From Synergistales bacterium (GTDB lineage: Bacteria; Synergistota; Synergistia; Synergistales; JAFGMB01), in contig OY762654.1 in assembly GCA_963666205.1 (NCBI GenBank), positions 518,611 to 582,610 of the forward strand: a DNA stretch of 64,000 bases, written 5' to 3'. How positions within the stretch are numbered: position 1 is the stretch's first letter; each line of letters opens with the position of its first letter. The notes beneath the pieces are model-generated. The model saw nothing but the letters and a program-made list of their open reading frames with translations. It had not been told where the DNA came from and did no database searches. The position numbers were made by a program, and so were the translations under genes. Positions 3,967 through 59,955 of the stretch are shown piece by piece.

Positions 3967-4929
3967 CTAACTTCCCATTAGAGGAAGAAGAACCTCAGGA
4001 ACTTTATCCTTTCCCGTTACTGCTCTGGGACCGACTATTCCCTGTCCCATTTCCCTGAAGATCTTTAACCCACCGTCTTCGCTCATAACAAACTTCGCGA
4101 ATTCCATAGCAAGTTCATGATTTGGAGCCTGTCTCGTAACAGTAAAACCATAAACGATGGGAGCACCTGTAAGAGTATTCTTTGAACCTGGCTCTTTCCC
4201 GGCTACTTCAACTTTTGCTGTTCTATAGAGATCAGCGTATTCCACATCCCTCAGATTGATCTGGGGGGGAAGTTCCACGAAGCTGAAACCATGCTGAACC
4301 GCCACTGACCTATATTCGAAAGCATAGTCCATTGCACCGCTCTCAACCTGAGCAACCAATTCTATGGCCTTGGGACGTGTATAGTGCCCTGGATCGTTCA
4401 TCGCCTTTTCATAAATGCCATCCTGACCGTAATGTTTCTCCGCAAGCTGAAGAACCATTACGGCTCTGTATCCGCATGGATCAAGATCAGGCTCTGAATT
4501 TCCCCAGGTTACATCTTTCCTCAGAATAATATCGAACCAGTTGTCCTGGTTTATTTCCTCAGCATACTTCGACTTGGGCCCATACATCAGAACTATTTCG
4601 TTTGAAGCAAACATTATGTTCCAATCCGAATATTCAGGTCGCAGCATATTTTCTATAACCTGATAATCTGCAGAAAAAAATATGTCACATTTCCCGCCAA
4701 GGTCGATTATCTTCCTTGCCAGTTGGCGACTTCCACCTGCTTCTCTTTTCACATCAACATCAGGGTGCATTTTTTCAAATTGTGATTCAAGTTCTGCCAT
4801 GGGTTTGCTCAGGCTACCGGCATGAAAAAGGATAAGTTCCTTCCCTGCTGCAGCGAAGCCTGCTGATGCAAATGCACTGAGTATTACCGTTACCAGCAAT
4901 AAAACCATTGTCTTGCGGATATTTTTCAA
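3967..4929 (-). CDS. WtpA-like tungstate/molybdate ABC substrate-binding protein
   Basis: Signal peptide. Motifs LFHAGSLS, SADY, DWNIMFASNEIVL and DPCGYR match my recollection of archaeal/bacterial WtpA rather than ModA or TupA. TTG start with GGAGGTG RBS 6 nt upstream. Confidence 0.75.
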   Translation of the reverse strand: MKNIRKTMVLLLVTVILSAFASAGFAAAGKELILFHAGSLSKPMAELESQFEKMHPDVDVKREAGGSRQLARKIIDLGGKCDIFFSADYQVIENMLRPEYSDWNIMFASNEIVLMYGPKSKYAEEINQDNWFDIILRKDVTWGNSEPDLDPCGYRAVMVLQLAEKHYGQDGIYEKAMNDPGHYTRPKAIELVAQVESGAMDYAFEYRSVAVQHGFSFVELPPQINLRDVEYADLYRTAKVEVAGKEPGSKNTLTGAPIVYGFTVTRQAPNHELAMEFAKFVMSEDGGLKIFREMGQGIVGPRAVTGKDKVPEVLLPLMGS

Positions 4930-4956
4930 AACTTACACCTCCACTATGAATATTGG

Positions 4957-5988
4957 TCAAAAAAGATGTACTCCCCGGGCCCTTATACCTAGAAAGACCC
5001 TGTCGCCTCTATTTATATGCATATCCATCATGGCTGAAGCCAAAAGATGTGCGGTCAATATGGTTTCTCCTACTTCTACAATTACTTCAAAGACAAGACC
5101 CCTTGTGTGAACAGATCGTACTGCCCCACTGAAGATATTTTCAGAACCATCCCCTGGATCTGATAAAAAGATCTGAATATCTTCAGGTCTGACACCAATA
5201 AAAGAATATTCATGATTATCTGGTGGATGATCTGTCCTGAATTGAAGTCCTTTCTCATTGACAGGATATCCTTCATTGAAATGACATTGAAAGATATTTT
5301 TCATGCCTACAAAACCGGCTACTGTCCGATCAAGGGGATGATAAAACACATCCTCTACTTTCCCCACCTGGTGGAGGCGTCCATCATTGATAACTGCCAC
5401 TCTTTCACCCAGCGAAAGAACTTCTCCAAAATCATGGGTAACCATAACAATAGTGTTGCCTTCACTGTGAAGGAGTTTCAGATAGTCTTGTATTTCTTCC
5501 CTGAAAACTGGATCCAGGGCACTTAATGGTTCATCCAGAAGAAGCAGGTCGGGATTCACTATAAGAGACCGGGCAAGGGCTACTCTCTGCTGCTCCCCTC
5601 CTGATAATGTTTCAGGAAACCTTTGAAGAAGATTCCTCAGCCTCAGAAGATCTACCAGATGTGAAAAACAGGACTCATCACAGTTATGAGTAAACCTTAA
5701 ACCATAACGAATATTTTCATTAACCGTAAAATGGGGAAAAAGGGCATAATCCTGGTAAACGAGTGCGACTTTTCTTTTTTCAGGTGTAAGCTCAGTCACA
5801 TCCCTACCAGAGATATATATTCTTCCACCATTTATTCGCTGTAGACCGGCAATTGCCTCCAACATTAGTGTTTTGCCAGCACCACTCGGGCCAACTATCA
5901 TTAAAAATTCATTTTTCCTGATGCTCAGGTTCAAAGATTGAATACTGAATCCCCCAAGAAGAATGGAAACATTATCAATCCTTATCAA
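4957..5988 (-). CDS. Tungstate/molybdate-type ABC transporter ATP-binding protein (WtpC/ModC-like)
   Basis: Walker A GPSGAGKT, LSGGEQQRVALARS, LLLLDEPLSALD. C-terminal ~100-aa TOBE-like extension. Overlaps the permease gene by 14 nt. Confidence 0.85.
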   Translation of the reverse strand: MIRIDNVSILLGGFSIQSLNLSIRKNEFLMIVGPSGAGKTLMLEAIAGLQRINGGRIYISGRDVTELTPEKRKVALVYQDYALFPHFTVNENIRYGLRFTHNCDESCFSHLVDLLRLRNLLQRFPETLSGGEQQRVALARSLIVNPDLLLLDEPLSALDPVFREEIQDYLKLLHSEGNTIVMVTHDFGEVLSLGERVAVINDGRLHQVGKVEDVFYHPLDRTVAGFVGMKNIFQCHFNEGYPVNEKGLQFRTDHPPDNHEYSFIGVRPEDIQIFLSDPGDGSENIFSGAVRSVHTRGLVFEVIVEVGETILTAHLLASAMMDMHINRGDRVFLGIRARGVHLF

Positions 5989-6796
5989 GTACGATTCCTC
6001 CCCTCGGAGCCTTCACCCTACCTGAAACCATAAACCTCAGAAACATGAACATGAGCAGGCATATGGTAACAAGTTGCACCGCTATAGGAGTGGAATATTT
6101 CAAACCAAAGGTGGCAAATCTGTCGTATATCAGCGTTGGAGCCACCATCGGATGATATGCAATAATGATAACCGCACCGAATTCACTGACGGCTCGCGCC
6201 CAACTCATTATCATCCCGGAATAGATCCCCTTTTTCGCAAGAGGAAGAGAAACATGAAAAAAGGTATATAACATAGAAGCACCGAGCAGTCTGCTTGCTT
6301 TTTCCAATCGGGGAGAAACAGAAACAAAAGAATCCCTTGCGGAGTCGACATAAAAAGGGATGCTGACAAATATACACGCCATAATGATGCCAAGAGAACT
6401 ATTAACAGGCTCCAGCCCTATGGAAACAAGGAAAGATCCTATGGGAGATTTAGGAGAAATGGTCATCAGAACTGCTATCCCTGCAACTGTATGAGGAACC
6501 ATTATGGGAATATCAATTATTGCTTCAAGAAGAGATTTTCCTTTAAATTCATTTCTTGCCAGAAAATAAGCCAGAGGTGTACCGAAAAGGACTATGAAAC
6601 CTGTCGCAGCTGCTGCAGTCCAGATACTTCTCCACAATACAGAGATCACTTCCGGATCGGCAGCCGTTTCCAGAACAATATGCCAGTCAGCCCGGAGGTA
6701 CATTCCTCCAAGAGGAATTACAACATAGGCTACAAGGAAGGATCCCATCAGAAGGCTGAACCACTTTTCACGAAAATAGGCGTTTGACAGCAACAT
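5975..6796 (-). CDS. Tungstate/molybdate-type ABC transporter permease (WtpB/ModB-like)
   Basis: Polytopic membrane protein with a BPD_transp_1-type EAA loop region (ASRLLGASMLYTFFHVSLPLAKKG). First gene of the permease-ATPase-SBP operon. Confidence 0.85.
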   Translation of the reverse strand: MLLSNAYFREKWFSLLMGSFLVAYVVIPLGGMYLRADWHIVLETAADPEVISVLWRSIWTAAAATGFIVLFGTPLAYFLARNEFKGKSLLEAIIDIPIMVPHTVAGIAVLMTISPKSPIGSFLVSIGLEPVNSSLGIIMACIFVSIPFYVDSARDSFVSVSPRLEKASRLLGASMLYTFFHVSLPLAKKGIYSGMIMSWARAVSEFGAVIIIAYHPMVAPTLIYDRFATFGLKYSTPIAVQLVTICLLMFMFLRFMVSGRVKAPRGGIVLDKD

Positions 6797-6964
6797 GATC
6801 CTCCTTGTCCAAAAGAAATTACCAGCTTGTTCTGTTTCCTACATGGGGGAGGGGGCTACGTGAAGTAGCCCCCCGGCTGTATAACACAAATAGTGCAGGA
6901 GGTAAGCAAACATAGAAAAAGGGCCTCTCCCACGCAAAGGAAGACGACCCTCAAAAAAAACGAT

Positions 6965-7070
6965 CGCATCCTCCTTTTCAAAAGCGGGAGGCTCACCCGT
7001 TTCCAGGTAAACCCTATCGGCTATGGACCATTGATTTTTCAATCTTTAGGCCTTCAAGCTCGGAGGTTTT
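6965..7070 (-). promoter_or_regulatory. Candidate Moco/Tuco (molybdenum/tungsten cofactor) riboswitch aptamer
   Basis: Minus-strand RNA is AAAACCUCCGAGCUUGAAGGCCUAAAGAUUGAAAAAUCAAUGGUCCAUAGCCGAUAGGGUUUACCUGGAAACGGGUGAGCCUCCCGCUUUUGAAAAGGAGG. It contains the blocks I recall as conserved in the Moco RNA motif (CCUCCGAGC, a GAAA-capped hairpin, GCCUCCCGC, AAAGGAG). It sits in the 5' leader of a Mo/W transporter operon. Confidence 0.55.
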
Positions 7071-7085
7071 ATATTTTCTACACGA

Positions 7086-7134: not shown

Positions 7135-8070
7135 CTAAAGTATATGCAAAAATTTTATCCAGATGGGTATAAAGAATACTGAAACAAGGGTGCTGACTGT
7201 AATCAGCTCACCCGTATACTCGCTATCCATACCCATTCCCTGGGCTATGACATAATTGTTTACAGCAGTCGGCATAGCGGAAACAAGAACGATTGTTTGA
7301 ACTATAAGGGTATTGCAAGGCCATATCAGGAAAACAACCCAGACAATCAGGGGGTGAGCTACCAGTTTAAATAACACATCCTTCCAGGTCCTTTTGAGGG
7401 ATTTCAGGAGGTGCTCAGGCCTTAAAGAAGCACCAAGACAAAGCAGTGCCAGGCCGCTGGCTGTTTTCCCCAGGATATCAAGGCTTTCGTCCAACCATTC
7501 AGGTAAAGGGCTTAATCCGCACAGTGAAACAATTATTCCGGCTACACATGAAAGGATAAGAGGGTTGTGGGATATCTTCTTACAGGTGCTCCAGAAAGAA
7601 GATGTTGAAAAAGAACCTGAGAGAGCCAATTGACCAGCGCTTATGGATATTATCTGAAACCCGACCATGCCAACTGCGAGAAAGGCTGTCAGGACGGCGA
7701 GCCCTTCCTCTCCTGTTGTCATCGATATTACCGGAATACCCATAAAAACGTTGTTTGCCCTTAGCGAAGCAAGGACAGATACTGCCATTCTTTTTTTCCC
7801 TGCAGTTCTGTCAAAAAGCCTGACCATCATCCAGGCCGCAAAAGGAACAATAAGAAAGGAAATATATATAGCCTTAATAAAATTTGGATCAGAAATCACT
7901 CCAAGATCTGTTGCCACTATTATACGAAACACTAGAGCCGGGAGAGCTATCCAATAAAGAAGAGAAGTAATCCTTTCCGCACCTTCATCATCAAGCAGGG
8001 AAATCTTTTTAACTCCGAAACCTACAGCCATTACAAGGAAAAGCGGAAGTATGACAAGTACACTCTGCAT
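7135..8070 (-). CDS. AEC (auxin efflux carrier) family transporter
   Basis: 311-aa polytopic membrane protein with two-lobed AEC-like topology and length. Confidence 0.8.
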   Translation of the reverse strand: MQSVLVILPLFLVMAVGFGVKKISLLDDEGAERITSLLYWIALPALVFRIIVATDLGVISDPNFIKAIYISFLIVPFAAWMMVRLFDRTAGKKRMAVSVLASLRANNVFMGIPVISMTTGEEGLAVLTAFLAVGMVGFQIISISAGQLALSGSFSTSSFWSTCKKISHNPLILSCVAGIIVSLCGLSPLPEWLDESLDILGKTASGLALLCLGASLRPEHLLKSLKRTWKDVLFKLVAHPLIVWVVFLIWPCNTLIVQTIVLVSAMPTAVNNYVIAQGMGMDSEYTGELITVSTLVSVFFIPIWIKFLHIL

Positions 8071-30810: not shown

Positions 30811-30931
30811 GTTTCTGGCAGCGACCTACTCTCCCACGGATACCCTCCGCAGTACCATCGGCGCTGGAGGGCTTAACTGCCGGGTTCGGCATGGAACCGG
30901 GTGTACCCCCTCCGCTATTACCACCAGAAAC
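30811..30931 (-). rRNA. rrf: 5S ribosomal RNA
   Basis: The reverse complement aligns by eye with bacterial 5S (…CCAUGCCGAACCCGGCAGUUAAGC…GGGAGAGUAGGUCGCUGCCAGAAAC), with terminal helix pairing. Ends accurate to a few nt. Confidence 0.9.
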
Positions 30932-30997
30932 CTTATTTAAATCTATACCCGTACGGGTCAAGACAGAAGAACAAGGTGTTTTACTTAAATCAGTAGA

Positions 30998-33993
<2,996 letters not shown>

Positions 33994-34121
33994 TACATTC
34001 TACTGATTTAAGTAACTTCACCTATTCTGCTGTCAAGGTCCTGTACGGGCAGTTCTTATAGACAGGTAAAAGAAAGAATAACTCACCATCATTTCGTGTT
34101 ACATAAGCCCCTGAGGGCTCT

Positions 34122-35660
<1,539 letters not shown>

Positions 35661-56420: not shown

Positions 56421-57668
56421 TCAAGGCCATATACCTTTAAATCTCATAGCTGCTATGATCCTGGAAATAGCACGCACATAAGCTGCCTGTCTCATACGGA
56501 TCTTGTTACCTTCCTTTATTTTCCATATCTCGTGAAAGGCAATAGTCAATTTTTCATCAAGTTTCTGGTGTACATATTCTTCTGTCCAATAATCTCCAGT
56601 TCTTCCCTGAATCCACTCGAAGCAGCTTACCGTAACTCCTCCGGCATTAGCCAGAACATCTGGAATAACTTCTATTCCTTTTTCTGATAAAATTAGATCC
56701 GCTTCTGGAGTCGTAGGACCATTTGCAAGTTCGAGAACTATGGATGCCTTGATATTCGGAGCATTCTTATCTGTTATGACTCCCTCAAGAGCAGCTGGAA
56801 TAAGGATATCAACATCGAGTTCCATAAGTTCTTCATTGCTTATCATTTCAGTCCCCGGGAATCCAGCAACACTTCCAGTCTTACCCTTGTGAGACCGCAA
56901 CTCATAATAATCTATACCGTCGGGATTATAAACCCCGCCATGACTGTCTGATGTAGCAACAATCTTGATACCCAACTCGCTTGCAGCGAGCTTGTGAGCA
57001 AATCCACCCACATTACCAAAACCCTGAACAGCGGCCTTCAGTTCTTTCCCGAGGAGTCCCTTTTCTTTGAGTATTTCCCTTAGAACATACATACCTCCTC
57101 TTGAAGTGGCATCTCCTCTTCCAAGAGAACCACCGGCCTCAACAGGTTTCCCCGTATAGCATGAAGGTTCACTCCTGCCATGGATTTTTTCATATGTATC
57201 AACAAACCATGCCATTACCTGGGGATTGGTATATACATCGGGAGCTGGAATATCAATATCAGTACCCATAAATCTTGAAATCGCAAGGGCATAACCACGA
57301 CTTAACCTTTCCGTTTCACCAGGAGAAAGATCCCTTACATTGACAGAAATACCTCCCTTCCCTCCCCCGTAAGGTAGCTGTGCCGTAGCGCATTTGATGG
57401 TCATCCATGAAGAAAGTGCAATTACTTCTTCCCTCGTCACGTTCGGGTGATATCGAACTCCCCCCTTATAGGGACCCAGAGCATTATTGTGATGGCTTCT
57501 CCATCCTTTGAGGACCTTTACTTCTCCATCATCCAGTCTTAACGGTATGGACACTTCCAATACTTCTTTGGGAAATTTCAGGATCTCGATATATTCCGGC
57601 TCTACACTCAAATACGGTGTGGCTTCGTCCACCTGTTTTAAAAACATTTCATACGGATTCAATATCAT
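56421..57668 (-). CDS. gdh: Glutamate dehydrogenase (paralogue 1)
   Basis: KGGVRYHP, GGGKGG, QGFGNVG Rossmann motif. Start set at MILNPYEM, which has an AAAGGAGGAA RBS. Confidence 0.92.
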   Translation of the reverse strand: MILNPYEMFLKQVDEATPYLSVEPEYIEILKFPKEVLEVSIPLRLDDGEVKVLKGWRSHHNNALGPYKGGVRYHPNVTREEVIALSSWMTIKCATAQLPYGGGKGGISVNVRDLSPGETERLSRGYALAISRFMGTDIDIPAPDVYTNPQVMAWFVDTYEKIHGRSEPSCYTGKPVEAGGSLGRGDATSRGGMYVLREILKEKGLLGKELKAAVQGFGNVGGFAHKLAASELGIKIVATSDSHGGVYNPDGIDYYELRSHKGKTGSVAGFPGTEMISNEELMELDVDILIPAALEGVITDKNAPNIKASIVLELANGPTTPEADLILSEKGIEVIPDVLANAGGVTVSCFEWIQGRTGDYWTEEYVHQKLDEKLTIAFHEIWKIKEGNKIRMRQAAYVRAISRIIAAMRFKGIWP

Positions 57669-57823
57669 GTTCCTCCTTTCAGAAATATGGATTGTCGACA
57701 TTCTCAACTCTATATAGAAGAAATCGCTTCTACTAAGCACTGCGAAAGCGATTTATATGTTCATTATATCTAATTAAAAATAAAGCGCAAGCATTTAACA
57801 TGTTAATGCGATTTTAAGTCTAA

Positions 57824-57895: not shown

Positions 57896-59176
57896 CTAAA
57901 GGAAAATACCTCTCATACGATGAGCTTCGGCAACCCTTTCGATGGCGACCATAAATGCTGCCTTACGCATGGGAACACCTTTTTCCTTACCGTAGGTCCA
58001 TACACGCTGGAAGTTTTCTTTCATTATGCGGATAAGACGTTCATTATACTCTTCTTCAGTCCAGAAATAACCGCCAAGGTCCTGGGCCCATTCAAAATAG
58101 GAACCGATGACTCCACCGGCATTGGCCAGGAAGTCAGGAACAATGAGAACTCCCCTTGAAGCAAGAATCGCATCTCCGTCAGCAGTGATAGGACCATTTG
58201 CAGCTTCTACTATTAATTTAGCCTTTACCTTGTCTGCATTATCCTTTGTGATAACCCCTTCGAGTGCTGCGGGAATAAAGAGATCTACGTCAAGATAAAG
58301 AACATCATTCAGTTCAAGTTTTTCCATACCATCCTGGACAAATCCCTCAAGAAGATGCTTGGGATGAACGTTCTGGACATGATCCACAGCTTTTTTGATA
58401 TCAAGTCCATCCTTATGGTAGTAGGTTCCGGTAATATCGCTGATGCCGACTACCTTACAACCAGCATCAATAAAGGTAAGAGCAGCATATGTACCGACAT
58501 TTCCGAAGCCTTGGATGGACACAGAAGCGCCTTCGACCTTTTTATCAAGAGCCTTAAAAAGTTCGAGACCGCAGGTTGCAACACCGTAACCAGTAGCTGC
58601 CGTACGTCCCTTTGAACCCCAGAGAGGGATGGGCTTTCCGGTAAAAATGGCTGGCTCAAGCCTGTTACGCATTTTACTGATGGTATCCATGAACCATACC
58701 ATCTCAGGTCCACCTGTATTAACATCGGGAGCAGGGATATCAGTCCAGGCACCTACAAGGGGCTCAACCCTGGCAGCCCAGGTTCTGGATATTTTTTCTT
58801 TTTCCTTCTTTGAAAGCTCCAGGGGCTCACAGCAGACTCCGCCCTTAGCGCCACCGTAAGGAATTCCTGCTAAAGAACATTTCCAGGTCATCATCATTCC
58901 CAAAGCCTCACACTCATCAAGGCAGACATTGGGATGGAAGCGGACGCCACCCTTGGATGGACCGAGGGCAGTAGAATGCTGAACACGGAAACCGTCAAAC
59001 ACCCTTATGGTTCCGTCATCCATCTCTACGGGGATGGACATGGACAATTTACGCTCAGATCGGCTGAGTATTTCAGTAAGTCCCTCTTCAAGACCCATTT
59101 CCTCTGCTGCTGAATAGAAAAAGTCCAGTGAATTAGCGAGGAAACCATTAGATGAAGTTCGTTTAACGACGGTCAT
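57896..59176 (-). CDS. gdh: Glutamate dehydrogenase (paralogue 2)
   Basis: KGGVRFHP, GGAKGG, QGFGNVG. Start set at MTVVKRTSS, which has a GGAGGTG RBS. Confidence 0.92.
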   Translation of the reverse strand: MTVVKRTSSNGFLANSLDFFYSAAEEMGLEEGLTEILSRSERKLSMSIPVEMDDGTIRVFDGFRVQHSTALGPSKGGVRFHPNVCLDECEALGMMMTWKCSLAGIPYGGAKGGVCCEPLELSKKEKEKISRTWAARVEPLVGAWTDIPAPDVNTGGPEMVWFMDTISKMRNRLEPAIFTGKPIPLWGSKGRTAATGYGVATCGLELFKALDKKVEGASVSIQGFGNVGTYAALTFIDAGCKVVGISDITGTYYHKDGLDIKKAVDHVQNVHPKHLLEGFVQDGMEKLELNDVLYLDVDLFIPAALEGVITKDNADKVKAKLIVEAANGPITADGDAILASRGVLIVPDFLANAGGVIGSYFEWAQDLGGYFWTEEEYNERLIRIMKENFQRVWTYGKEKGVPMRKAAFMVAIERVAEAHRMRGIFL

Positions 59177-59449
59177 ACAACAAACACCTCCTGGAGATAT
59201 CAAATGGCTACAAGCCAAATGTTAATACCCTCTAACCAGGGCACGCTTGATAACTATATCACAATTTTTCCGGAACCTTCCAATGACCCGAAAAAATGGT
59301 TCTCAATACCTAAGGTCAGGAATACAAGATGGAATTTTACCAATTATCATTGATGCATTCTGACAAGTTCAAAGCAACAGGAAGTTGTCAGCCCAATAAA
59401 TGGGAAATGGAATGTAAATTGGAACTACGGAGTAAAAGGCAACATTCAT

Positions 59450-59476
59450 AAAAAAGGGAGATGCCAAAGCATCCCC
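59450..59476 (-). terminator. Intrinsic terminator of the candidate selenoprotein gene
   Basis: Minus strand reads GGGGAUGC-UUUG-GCAUCUCCC (one bulge) followed by a U6 run, about 20 nt after the TAA stop. Confidence 0.65.
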
Positions 59477-59494
59477 TTTTACCTTTAATCCAGC

Positions 59495-59833
59495 TTATAT
59501 TCCGCAACTACCAGATCCTTTTCCAAGAAGAGCAGAAACTGCTTCTATCTGGCTGTTCCAAAGGAAACCAGTTACCTGGATATCCACTTCGTTGTCCCTG
59601 AAACACATCCCGGAAGGGACCCAGACCTTTATATCATCAAGAGTAAGCATGACATAACCGGACTCATCCGAAGGCTTTCCGCTCTCAACGAGAGCAGCTT
59701 TTCTTTTTGCTCAACCTGAACCTAACATTGCAGTGACTATATATATGTCTCTGCCCTTTTCTTTAATCCTGTTTTTGGCTTTTTCACCTATTTTCAAAAC
59801 CAGGTCACTCAAATAAAACACCCCCTGTGTCAT
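59495..59833 (-). CDS. Candidate selenoprotein (112 aa with UGA at codon 41), IscA/HesB-like layout
   Basis: Not in the ORF track because the in-frame TGA (59713..59711) splits it. Manual translation gives MTQGVFYLSDLVLKIGEKAKNRIKEKGRDIYIVTAMLGSG-U-AKRKAALVESGKPSDESGYVMLTLDDIKVWVPSGMCFRDNEVDIQVTGFLWNSQIEAVSALLGKGSGSCGI. The frame stays open for 71 codons after the TGA. It has a dedicated promoter and terminator. An alternative start is TTG 59812, after an AGGGGGTG RBS. Confidence 0.55.
59679..59697 (-). promoter_or_regulatory. SECIS-like hairpin 13 nt downstream of the in-frame UGA
   Basis: Minus-strand RNA is GCUGCUCUC-GUU-GAGAGCGG. That gives 6 Watson-Crick pairs plus U-G and C-G extensions, and an apical loop starting with G about 21 nt after the UGA. 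Confidence 0.4.
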
Positions 59834-59851
59834 TTCCTGTTTTGACAATAT

Positions 59852-59897
59852 AATTATACCCCCTGGGGTATAATTTGTAAATCCCTGGGGTCTATAA
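59852..59897 (-). promoter_or_regulatory. Promoter with embedded 24-bp palindromic operator
   Basis: Minus strand reads TTTACA (59881..59876), 17 nt, TATAAT (59858..59853). AATTATACCCC-ct-GGGGTATAATT (59852-59875) covers the spacer and the -10 element. A second CCCTGGGGTcTATAA copy lies at 59883-59897. Confidence 0.55.
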
Positions 59898-59955
59898 CGA
59901 AAACCGGGAGATTCCGGATCCGGATAATTTGTATACTTTAATCACAACAAATCCG

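What the first reader, a model, noticed from the sequence alone, without database searches (positions are those of the whole stretch)
59450..59897. Hidden monocistronic gene with in-frame UGA and a SECIS-like hairpin: candidate IscA/HesB-like selenoprotein
The ORF track shows nothing between 59218 and 59892, yet the minus strand carries a complete expression unit.
- Promoter: TTTACA-17-TATAAT.
- Reading frame: 113 codons (59833..59495), interrupted only by TGA at codon 41.
- Hairpin: 8 bp with a G-first apical loop, starting 13 nt after the UGA. That geometry is compatible with bacterial SECIS elements.
- Terminator: a U-tract terminator about 20 nt after the TAA stop.

The frame stays open for 71 codons after the TGA, which is unlikely by chance in AT-rich DNA.

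The layout parallels A-type Fe-S carriers (IscA/HesB). A beta strand ends in GSG-U where IscA has SGCSG. A central DDIKVWV...VDIQ segment follows, and the C-terminus is GSGSCG. A HesB-like selenoprotein family has been described in prokaryotic selenoproteome surveys, so the fold assignment is plausible but remains inference.
Basis: partly seen in the sequence, partly recalled or inferred. Interest (0 to 1): 0.7.

Follow-up and report, generated by a model that had tools for sequence, protein, structure and literature searches.

The report
Unannotated HesB-like selenoprotein gene

Summary
Confirmed. The minus strand at 59881-59447 carries a promoter, ribosome-binding site, a 105-codon frame with one in-frame TGA (59713-59711), a hairpin 13 nt downstream, and a terminator. 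The start is more likely TTG 59812 than ATG 59833.

- **Family:** with U replaced by C, the product scores 48.7-49 bits (cutoff 40) on NCBIfam NF041239, 'CC/Se motif family (seleno)protein'.
- **Conservation:** 22 distinct homologous sequences, the 17 named ones all Synergistota, have TGA in the same G-x-G-TGA column. At least six homologues have Cys there.
- **Selection:** dN/dS downstream of the TGA is about 0.11.
- **Hairpin:** Sec forms keep GCNGCNCUC-GUN-GAGAGYGG through fixed synonymous codons. Cys forms lose it.
- **Genetic code:** UGA is otherwise the commonest stop in this window.
- **Host:** an Acetomicrobium species. Two species of this genus (then named Anaerobaculum) are reported to have 8-10 selenoproteins each.
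- **Fold:** the AlphaFold model's top PDB matches are SufA, IscA and HesB-like proteins. hhalign places Sec on IscA Cys35.

It is not the classical HesB-like selenoprotein family (TIGR01911). It lacks the family's listed CxxU motif and has a conserved C-terminal Cys instead. A conserved CsoR-type palindrome overlaps the promoter. The function, a metal, Fe-S or sulfur carrier, is inferred. The sel genes could not be checked.

The parts
59876..59881 (-). -35 hexamer TTTACA
   Evidence: Promoter scan. The hexamer is conserved in L001, L006 and L020.
59853..59858 (-). -10 hexamer TATAAT, 17-nt spacer
   Evidence: Promoter scan, 11 of 12 matches to the consensus.
59856..59871 (.). Palindrome ATACCCCAGGGGGTAT (TAC-N8-GTA with C and G tracts) over the spacer and the -10 box. 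It is a candidate operator of a CsoR/RcnR-family repressor.
   Evidence: It is the only exact ATACC-N6-GGTAT match in 64 kb, against 0.03 expected. A similar ATAC-N8/9-GTAT site lies upstream of nearly all Sec-form homologues with upstream sequence, including ones only 34-38% identical. It resembles the published CsoR type-2 consensus ATATACCCCTNAGGGGTATAT (PMC3902906). Binding is inferred, not tested.
59819..59825 (-). Ribosome-binding site GGGGGTG
   Evidence: Read from the sequence. The same motif sits 7-8 nt before the start in L001, L009 and L010.
59495..59812 (-). Coding sequence of 105 aa plus TAA: TTG start 59812-59810, Sec codon at residue 34, stop 59497-59495. A CC/Se motif family selenoprotein with a HesB/IscA-like fold.
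59711..59713 (-). In-frame TGA, predicted selenocysteine codon (U34). It aligns with Cys35 of IscA.
   Evidence: TGA is in the same column in 22 distinct sequences. Cys is there in P0007, P0011 and P0013-P0016.
59679..59697 (-). SECIS-like hairpin CUGCUCUC-GUU-GAGAGCGG, with apical loop GUU at 59689-59687.
   Evidence: In the Sec forms 86.9% of cells are paired, against 31-50% in slid registers. Cys and Ala forms keep only 2-6 of 9 pairs.
59504..59506 (-). Codon of Cys103 in the Gly/Ser-rich C-terminal tail. It is the conserved partner cysteine, analogous to the C-terminal CxC of IscA.
   Evidence: The column is nearly invariant in alignment A2. The tail has low confidence in the model, pLDDT below 50 for residues 99-105.
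59447..59476 (-). Intrinsic terminator: GGGGATGC-TTTG-GCATCTCC followed by CTTTTTT.
   Evidence: Terminator scan.

Best explanation
This is a functional, monocistronic selenoprotein gene of an Acetomicrobium species (phylum Synergistota).

**Expression (inferred from anatomy).** Transcription starts at a sigma-70-type promoter and ends at an intrinsic terminator. Translation starts at TTG 59812. At UGA 59713-59711, SelB with Sec-tRNA(Sec) is recruited by the hairpin 13 nt downstream, which has an 8-bp stem and a GUU loop. Selenocysteine is inserted, giving a 105-aa protein.

**Protein (shown by computation).** It belongs to the catalogued 'CC/Se motif family (seleno)protein' (NF041239 / PF28096). 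It has the HesB/IscA A-type-carrier fold. Sec34 sits at the position of the first invariant cysteine of IscA (Cys35). A conserved Cys103 sits in a flexible C-terminal tail.

**Function (inferred).** Sec34 and Cys103, probably across a dimer as in IscA, bind or transfer a thiophilic ligand such as an Fe-S cluster, Cu(I) or a sulfur/selenium species.

**Regulation (inferred).** A CsoR/RcnR-family repressor bound to the TAC-N8-GTA palindrome over the -10 box keeps the gene off until its effector appears.
For: **Gene anatomy**
- Frame, TGA, promoter, terminator and hairpin are confirmed.

**Family membership**
- NF041239 scores 48.7-49 bits against a cutoff of 40. All 10 aligned relatives match it.
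- PF28096 CC_Se_fam is precomputed on relatives.

**TGA is Sec, not a stop**
- TGA is in the same G-x-G column in 22 distinct sequences. The 17 genome-derived loci are all named Synergistota.
- Cys is in that column in P0007, P0011 and P0013-P0016. These Cys forms lie in the same HD - RluA - X (- GDH) synteny.
- dN/dS downstream of the TGA is 0.11-0.12.
- UGA is the ordinary stop of 24 of 44 long ORFs in the window.

**Hairpin is a Sec-specific signal**
- In the Sec forms Leu is always CUC, Glu where present is always GAG (19 of 22), and Ser where present is always AGY (21 of 22). That codon combination is expected in 1.2% of cases from the window's own codon usage.
- The Val third position, which lies in the loop, varies freely.
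- There is one compensatory U-A to C-G change, in L013.
- The hairpin is lost in Cys and Ala forms, which keep 2-6 of 9 pairs and use Leu CUG.

**Host**
- The window is 92% DNA-identical to an A. hydrogeniformans MAG.
- Anaerobaculum hydrogeniformans and A. mobile are listed with 10 and 8 selenoproteins. 13 of 14 Synergistetes use Sec (PMC5029168).

**Fold**
- AlphaFold2 gives pLDDT 82.9.
- The Foldseek top hits are SufA, IscA and HesB-like proteins.
- hhalign against an IscA/SufA alignment gives 91.6% probability and E 8e-7, with Sec aligned to Cys35.

**Operator**
Against: - No selA, selB, selD or tRNA-Sec is present in the 64-kb window or in any fetched locus. The rest of the genome could not be read.
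- No Rfam family matches the hairpin.
- The covariation statistics are not significant, with 66 of 500 shuffles reaching the observed value. The stem is almost invariant and also encodes the conserved peptide AALVESG.
- The window protein does not itself reach Pfam Fe-S_biosyn or TIGR01911.
- TM-scores to IscA and SufA are moderate, 0.44-0.49.
- The protein has two potential ligands (Sec34, Cys103) rather than the three Cys of A-type carriers.
- No CsoR-like gene was found in the window or the loci, so the regulator is hypothetical.
- There is no experimental evidence for the function.
Confidence: 0.85

Rival explanations
1. Pseudogene: a Cys-type HesB-like gene inactivated by a TGC/TGT-to-TGA nonsense mutation.
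For: TGA is one substitution from TGC or TGT. Cys-form orthologues exist at the same syntenic site in other Synergistota. Gene callers split the gene into 45-aa and 51-aa ORFs.
Against: The same TGA is kept in 22 distinct sequences that are 34-92% identical. dN/dS downstream is about 0.11. The promoter, ribosome-binding site, terminator and a Sec-form-specific hairpin are all conserved.
Confidence: 0.02
2. Two independent small genes: a 33-aa peptide ending at UGA, and a 51-aa protein starting at ATG 59650.
For: ATG 59650 exists and gene callers use it.
Against: The 20 codons between the TGA and that ATG (AKRKAALVESGKPSDESGYV) are conserved at protein level. In the Cys-form homologues they are continuous with both halves. 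The internal ATG is not conserved, since L006, L009 and L010 have other residues there. Only the fused polypeptide matches the family profile across its length (profile positions 3-86). The fused sequence also models as a single HesB-like domain.
Confidence: 0.03
3. The UGA is decoded as something other than Sec, by an alternative genetic code (Trp or Gly) or by near-cognate readthrough.
For: Several database entries of relatives (P0003, P0010, P0017-P0019) carry W at this position.
Against: Those W residues are artefacts of gene callers applying another code. The DNA has TGA, and the loci do not translate to the query under table 11. In this window 24 of 44 long ORFs end in TGA. The aligned residue in homologues is Cys, never Trp encoded by TGG. 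A SECIS-type hairpin accompanies the TGA only.
Confidence: 0.04
4. The gene and the Sec decoding are the same, but the function differs. The protein would be a thiol/selenol redox protein that cycles through a Sec34-Cys103 selenylsulfide, rather than a carrier of metal or Fe-S clusters.
For: Most prokaryotic selenoproteins are redox proteins with a Sec/Cys pair (PMC13188914). Only two conserved chalcogen residues are present. The review lists the family with a CxxU redox-type motif.
Against: The fold and the position of Sec match the cluster-ligand Cys of A-type carriers. The Cys-form orthologues carry CxxCxxC tails typical of metal binding, and in Jonquetella they lie two genes from NifS and NifU. 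The operator type points to metal or persulfide sensing.
Confidence: 0.25

Closest known systems
CC/Se motif family (seleno)protein (NCBIfam NF041239 'Moor_selen_rel'; Pfam PF28096 CC_Se_fam). [quoted passage not shown]
   Same: The window protein scores above the curated cutoff, 49 against 40 bits, over profile positions 3-86 of 91. All relatives match too. It is a small protein of about 100 aa with a single Sec or Cys after a G-x-G turn.
   Different: The window protein and its Synergistota clade read L-G-S-G-U-A. There is no Cys at -3 (no CxxU) and no Cys next to Sec. The more distant members P0010 and P0018 read G-S-G-U-C and lack the C-terminal Cys. The Synergistota clade has a conserved Cys in a C-terminal tail that lies outside the profile.
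A-type Fe-S carriers IscA / SufA / ErpA / HesB (Pfam PF01521 Fe-S_biosyn; PDB 1r94, 1s98, 2d2a, 1x0g, 1nwb)
   Same: The fold matches: these are the Foldseek top hits, with probabilities of 0.94-1.00. The profile-profile match is 91.6% with E 8e-7, and Sec aligns on the invariant Cys35. Both have a flexible C-terminal Cys-containing tail. 4 of 10 relatives hit PF01521.
   Different: The window protein itself has no PF01521 hit. It has Sec instead of Cys, and one C-terminal Cys instead of the CxC pair. TM-scores are only 0.44-0.49. Fe-S binding has not been tested.
HesB-like selenoprotein family (NCBIfam TIGR01911 HesB_rel_seleno; motif UxGP; 86 organisms in PMC5029168)
   Same: Both are small HesB-fold proteins with Sec at the first conserved Cys position.
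   Different: The window protein does not hit TIGR01911 even at E up to 10. Only 1 of 10 relatives does, at E 0.006. The residues after Sec are A-K-R, not x-G-P.
CsoR/RcnR-family operators (type-2 consensus ATATACCCCTNAGGGGTATAT; TAC-X9-GTA flanking G-tracts; PMC3902906)
   Same: The site is ATACCCCAGGGGGTAT, with a TAC/GTA dyad, C and G tracts, and overlap with the -10 box.
   Different: The spacer is 8 nt in the window and 9 nt in Thermovirgaceae. No CsoR-family gene was found nearby. Binding is untested.

Membership tests
Bacterial selenoprotein gene (Sec-decoded UGA) | In-frame UGA conserved among orthologues, with coding conservation on both sides | tested here: met
   22 distinct sequences have TGA in the same column. 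dN/dS downstream is 0.11-0.12.
Bacterial selenoprotein gene (Sec-decoded UGA) | Cys-containing homologues with Cys aligned to the UGA (criterion of PMC1088965: at least two) | tested here: met
   P0007, P0011, P0013, P0014, P0015 and P0016 have Cys in that column.
Bacterial selenoprotein gene (Sec-decoded UGA) | SECIS stem-loop immediately downstream of the UGA, with a small apical loop containing G | tested here: met
   The stem is 8-9 bp, the loop is GUN, and the stem starts 13 nt after the UGA. 86.9% of cells are paired in the Sec forms, and the hairpin is lost in the Cys forms. The feature list follows PMC1088965.
Bacterial selenoprotein gene (Sec-decoded UGA) | Match to a curated SECIS covariance model | tested here: inconclusive
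   No Rfam family matched at E up to 10. The covariation shuffle test was not significant, 66 of 500, because the stem is invariant.
Bacterial selenoprotein gene (Sec-decoded UGA) | selA, selB, selC (tRNA-Sec) and selD in the same genome | not testable with these tools
Indirect support: two species of the genus, then named Anaerobaculum, are listed with 8-10 selenoproteins.
Bacterial selenoprotein gene (Sec-decoded UGA) | Selenium in the protein (75Se labelling or mass spectrometry) | not testable with these tools
   Requires experiment.
CC/Se motif family (NF041239 / PF28096) | Score above the curated HMM cutoff | tested here: met
   48.7-49 bits against a cutoff of 40, with E about 5e-13.
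CC/Se motif family (NF041239 / PF28096) | Eponymous Cys partner next to or near the Sec/Cys (listed as CxxU in PMC13188914; U-C in P0010 and P0018) | tested here: not met
   The window protein reads LGSG-U-AKR, with no Cys within 3 residues of Sec. This is a Synergistota clade variant with a C-terminal Cys instead. I did not see the family's own motif definition, only the review table.
A-type carrier IscA/HesB (PF01521) | Pfam HMM match | tested here: not met
   The window protein has no hit at E up to 10. 4 of 10 relatives hit, best E 5.8e-7.
A-type carrier IscA/HesB (PF01521) | HesB/IscA fold | tested here: met
   The top 10 Foldseek PDB hits are all of this fold, with probabilities of 0.94-1.00 for the first seven and TM 0.35-0.49 across the ten. 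hhalign gives 91.6%.
A-type carrier IscA/HesB (PF01521) | Three invariant Cys (C35 ... C99-x-C101) | tested here: not met
   Sec occupies the C35 column, but the tail has only one Cys in the Sec forms. The Cys forms have CxxCxxC.
A-type carrier IscA/HesB (PF01521) | Fe-S cluster binding or transfer | not testable with these tools
   Requires biochemistry.
HesB-like selenoprotein (TIGR01911) | HMM match and UxGP motif | tested here: not met
   The window protein has no hit. 1 of 10 relatives hits at E 0.006. The motif here is U-A-K-R.

The most novel reading that the evidence does not exclude
The Sec forms of this Synergistota clade, unlike the Cys forms that are co-transcribed with rluA, have acquired their own promoter gated by a CsoR/CstR-type repressor. 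The protein would then be a stress-inducible selenocysteine-based chaperone for Cu(I), persulfide or selenium on a HesB scaffold. That would be a previously undescribed link between CsoR-family sensing and a selenoprotein.
Probability: 0.2. Interest if true: 0.55.

Novelty: new member of a known kind. Interest (0 to 1): 0.3.

Why it matters
- Standard ORF calling splits this gene into 45-aa and 51-aa fragments, or mistranslates the Sec as Trp in public protein sets. The case shows how a real selenoprotein gene hides in an apparent intergenic gap, and how it can be recovered from sequence alone.
- For Synergistota biology it adds one selenoprotein per genome, at a deeply conserved locus (HD hydrolase - RluA - X - glutamate dehydrogenase) where Sec and Cys forms replace each other.
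- The fold assignment and the CsoR-type operator give the first testable functional leads for a family listed as of unknown function. The protein has a HesB/IscA fold, with Sec on the cluster-ligand Cys.

Tried and rejected
- **Rfam.** Gathering thresholds on the whole window and E up to 10 on 59400-59950 gave no SECIS family, only chance hits.
- **Word-index protein search.** With the single protein it found only one C-terminal fragment.
- **Input restrictions.** Writing X at the Sec site was accepted.
- **PDB sequence-profile search.** It gave no meaningful hit, only a complex I subunit at E 0.2. Fold comparison was needed.
- **The search for related loci.** The 10-sequence alignment had no conserved stretch. 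A 4-sequence alignment worked, but its peptide patterns favour Sec-form relatives, so '17 of 17 have TGA' is not an unbiased frequency.
- **Covariation test.** It was not significant, 66 of 500. I rely instead on synonymous-codon fixation and the contrast between Sec and Cys forms.
- **CsoR-like gene.** An R-x-GQ motif scan found none in the window or the loci.
- **Other TGA-interrupted genes.** A scan of the window found only spurious read-throughs.
- **tRNA-Sec.** None in the window or in 22 loci.
- **Exact-sequence look-up.** The full-length product is not in the collection. Only the 45-aa N-terminal fragment is, on an NCBI contig of 2.95 Mb.
- **IscR type-2 site.** I considered it for the palindrome from memory and rejected it, because the spacing between the C and G tracts is much shorter here.
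- **Zhang and Gladyshev 2008.** It does not mention the Moorella protein in its main text.
Full report
**1. Observation**

- The frame 59833..59495 has 113 codons. Its only internal stop is TGA at codon 41 (59713-59711), followed by 71 sense codons and TAA.
- The consensus scan finds TTTACA-17-TATAAT at 59881-59853, 11 of 12 matches.
- It also finds an intrinsic terminator, an 8-bp stem at 59476-59457 followed by CTTTTTT.
- The hairpin CUGCUCUC-GUU-GAGAGCGG begins 13 nt after the UGA.

One correction concerns the start codon. A close relative, L001 (about 92% DNA identity), has a 1-nt deletion between ATG 59833 and TTG 59812. The A. hydrogeniformans MAG L020 has ATA in place of the ATG. TTG, preceded by GGGGG at 8 nt, is the only start shared by the window, L001, L006, L010 and L020. 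The product is therefore 105 aa with the UGA at residue 34.

**2. What it is**

With U written as C, the product matches one NCBIfam model, NF041239 'CC/Se motif family (seleno)protein'. It scores 48.7-49 bits against a curated cutoff of 40. It matches no Pfam model in the local copy. Relatives carry precomputed hits to the newer Pfam PF28096 CC_Se_fam.

A full HMMER scan of 1.84 billion representatives, with X at the Sec site, gave 12 hits.
- Several were C-terminal fragments that start just after the Sec column. This is the signature of gene callers stopping at TGA.
- The DNA of those fragments (L006-L010) shows an in-frame TGA in the same G-x-G-TGA column, and the same hairpin.
- Entries with W at that position (P0003, P0010, P0017-P0019) also have TGA in the DNA. 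The W comes from gene calling under another genetic code.

A scan of one genome per GTDB species returned 17 loci. All are Synergistota (Acetomicrobium, Thermovirgaceae, Synergistaceae and others), and all have TGA in that column. That scan used peptide patterns taken from Sec forms, so it is biased towards them.

In total, 22 distinct sequences share the TGA. Homologues with Cys in the column exist: P0007, P0011 and P0013-P0016. They include Jonquetella WP_008519643.1. One clade has Ala there (P0006).

Those forms whose contigs could be read with their neighbours occupy the same syntenic slot, HD-domain protein - RluA - X. Glutamate dehydrogenase follows in the window, L006/L007 and Jonquetella. 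These appear to be orthologous Sec/Cys replacements.

**3. Is the UGA read as Sec?**

- UGA is the ordinary and commonest stop of long ORFs in this window, ending 24 of 44. The genome is therefore not recoded.
- The 69 codons compared after the TGA are under purifying selection. dN/dS is 0.11 against L001 and 0.12 against L020.
- The 20 codons between the TGA and the internal ATG are conserved. In the Cys forms they are continuous with both halves. This excludes two separate genes.
- The hairpin encodes the conserved peptide AALVESG, so its conservation alone proves little. The shuffle test for covariation is not significant, 66 of 500.
- The synonymous sites are informative.
  - In the 22 Sec forms, Leu is always CUC. 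Glu is GAG in all 19 sequences that have Glu at that codon, and Ser is AGY in all 21 that have Ser.
  - From the window's own codon usage (13%, 30% and 29%), this combination is expected in 1.2% of cases.
  - The third base of the Val codon lies in the loop and takes all four values.
- In-register pairing is 86.9%, against 31-50% for slid registers. One pair shows a compensatory U-A to C-G change, in L013.
- The Cys and Ala forms keep the peptide (AALVKS) but use CUG, AAA and UCC. They form only 2-6 of the 9 pairs.
- The geometry fits the published description of bacterial SECIS elements (PMC1088965). The loop is small and starts with G, and it begins 21 nt after the UGA.
- Rfam has no matching model.

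Host. The window is 92% identical over 12.5 kb to an Acetomicrobium hydrogeniformans MAG. Peng et al. 2016 list Anaerobaculum (now Acetomicrobium) hydrogeniformans and A. mobile with 10 and 8 selenoprotein genes. They report that 13 of 14 Synergistetes use Sec (PMC5029168).

The sel genes themselves are not in the window or in any fetched locus. I could not read the rest of the genome. This is the main untested link.

**4. Fold and likely mechanism**

- An AlphaFold2 model built on a 12-row alignment has mean pLDDT 82.9 and pTM 0.71. The C-terminal tail, residues 99-105, is disordered.
- Its ten best PDB matches are all HesB/IscA-fold proteins: SufA 2d2a, IscA 1r94, 1s98 and 1x0g, Aq_1857 1nwb, YneR, HI1723 and DsrR. 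The first seven have probabilities of 0.94-1.00, and TM-scores across the ten are 0.35-0.49.
- I built an IscA/SufA/Aq_1857/HI1723 alignment from sequences checked against PDB entries. hhalign against it gives 91.6% probability and E 8e-7. It places G-S-G-U on S-G-C35 of IscA.
- Pfam Fe-S_biosyn is hit by 4 of 10 relatives, best E 5.8e-7, but not by the window protein.
- A Cys in the C-terminal tail is nearly invariant: GSGSCG, RGGCxx, and CxxCxxC in the Cys forms.

My reading is inferred. Sec34 and Cys103, probably across a dimer as in IscA, ligate or transfer a thiophilic species such as an Fe-S cluster, Cu(I), or sulfur or selenium. A selenylsulfide redox cycle is the main functional rival.

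**5. Regulation (noticed here)**

- The palindrome ATACCCCAGGGGGTAT (59871-59856) spans the promoter spacer and the -10 box. It is the only exact ATACC-N6-GGTAT match in 64 kb, against 0.03 expected.
- A similar ATAC-N8/9-GTAT site with C and G tracts lies in the same position upstream of nearly all Sec-form homologues with upstream sequence. These include homologues only 34-38% identical in otherwise unrelated promoter sequence (L013, L016). In 15 of the fetched loci it occurs exactly once, always upstream of this gene.
- It matches the published CsoR type-2 operator (ATATACCCCTNAGGGGTATAT, TAC-X9-GTA flanking G-tracts; PMC3902906).
- The Cys forms whose upstream DNA was examined lack the palindrome. 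Three of them abut or overlap rluA, while L011 sits 119 nt downstream of it.
- No CsoR-family gene was found nearby. The identity of the repressor is an inference.

**6. Comparison with what is known, and novelty**

- The family is already catalogued. [quoted passage not shown]
- The window gene is a member by the curated score. It belongs to a Synergistota clade that lacks a Cys near the Sec (no CxxU and no UC) and has a C-terminal Cys instead.
- It is not the classical HesB-like selenoprotein family TIGR01911 (motif UxGP). The window protein gives no hit to that model.
- I rate it a new member of a known kind.
- The fold and Cys35 equivalence, and the CsoR-type operator, are modest new functional leads.

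**7. Verdict**

- Real selenoprotein gene, CC/Se family, HesB/IscA fold: confidence about 0.85-0.9.
- Specific function and regulator: inferred, about 0.3-0.4.
- Interest: 0.3.

Noticed in passing
window 59856-59871; also L001 1336, L006 about 3253, L010 about 36, L013 about 266, L016 about 506, L021-L036 about 7923-7942: A conserved TAC-N8/9-GTA palindrome with C and G tracts overlaps the -10 box of the Sec-form genes. It resembles CsoR/RcnR-family operators. It is absent upstream of the Cys-form orthologues examined, three of which abut or overlap rluA.
   Followed up: partly
P0003, P0010, P0017, P0018, P0019 (loci L013-L016): Public protein entries of relatives carry Trp at the Sec position. 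Short contigs were gene-called under a code that reads TGA as Trp, while the DNA has TGA. This artefact can hide selenoproteins in metagenome protein sets.
   Followed up: yes
L001 1557-1775: In the 92%-identical relative the stop TAA has become TAC. The frame then runs 21 codons further, through the terminator hairpin (…GSGSCEMYADLKGKGDAMASPFFSEFFL). This may be a real C-terminal extension or an assembly error in a contig of about 2x coverage.
   Followed up: no
L037/L038 7039-9919 (Jonquetella): In Jonquetella, the glutamate dehydrogenase gene downstream of the Cys-form orthologue is followed by a PALP enzyme, a class V aminotransferase (NifS/IscS-like) and a NifU_N scaffold. This weakly supports an Fe-S-related role. 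The window lacks this arrangement.
   Followed up: no
L017/L018 2565-4088: A clade of homologues (P0006) has Ala instead of Sec or Cys but keeps a Cys-rich tail (CSSCASCGGGCAGC). It is followed by two chromate-transporter-family genes.
   Followed up: no
window 56421-57740 and 57896-59218: Two tandem glutamate dehydrogenase (ELFV) paralogues lie directly downstream of the selenoprotein gene on the same strand. The tandem is also present in L007.
   Followed up: no
window 6955-7077 (-): A Moco (molybdenum/tungsten cofactor) riboswitch, 64 bits, lies upstream of an ABC transporter operon (3967-6796) that looks like a molybdate or tungstate uptake system.
   Followed up: no
window 30813-35660 (-): A complete rRNA operon (16S, 23S, 5S) with no tRNA detected in the 16S-23S spacer or anywhere else in the window.
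   Followed up: no
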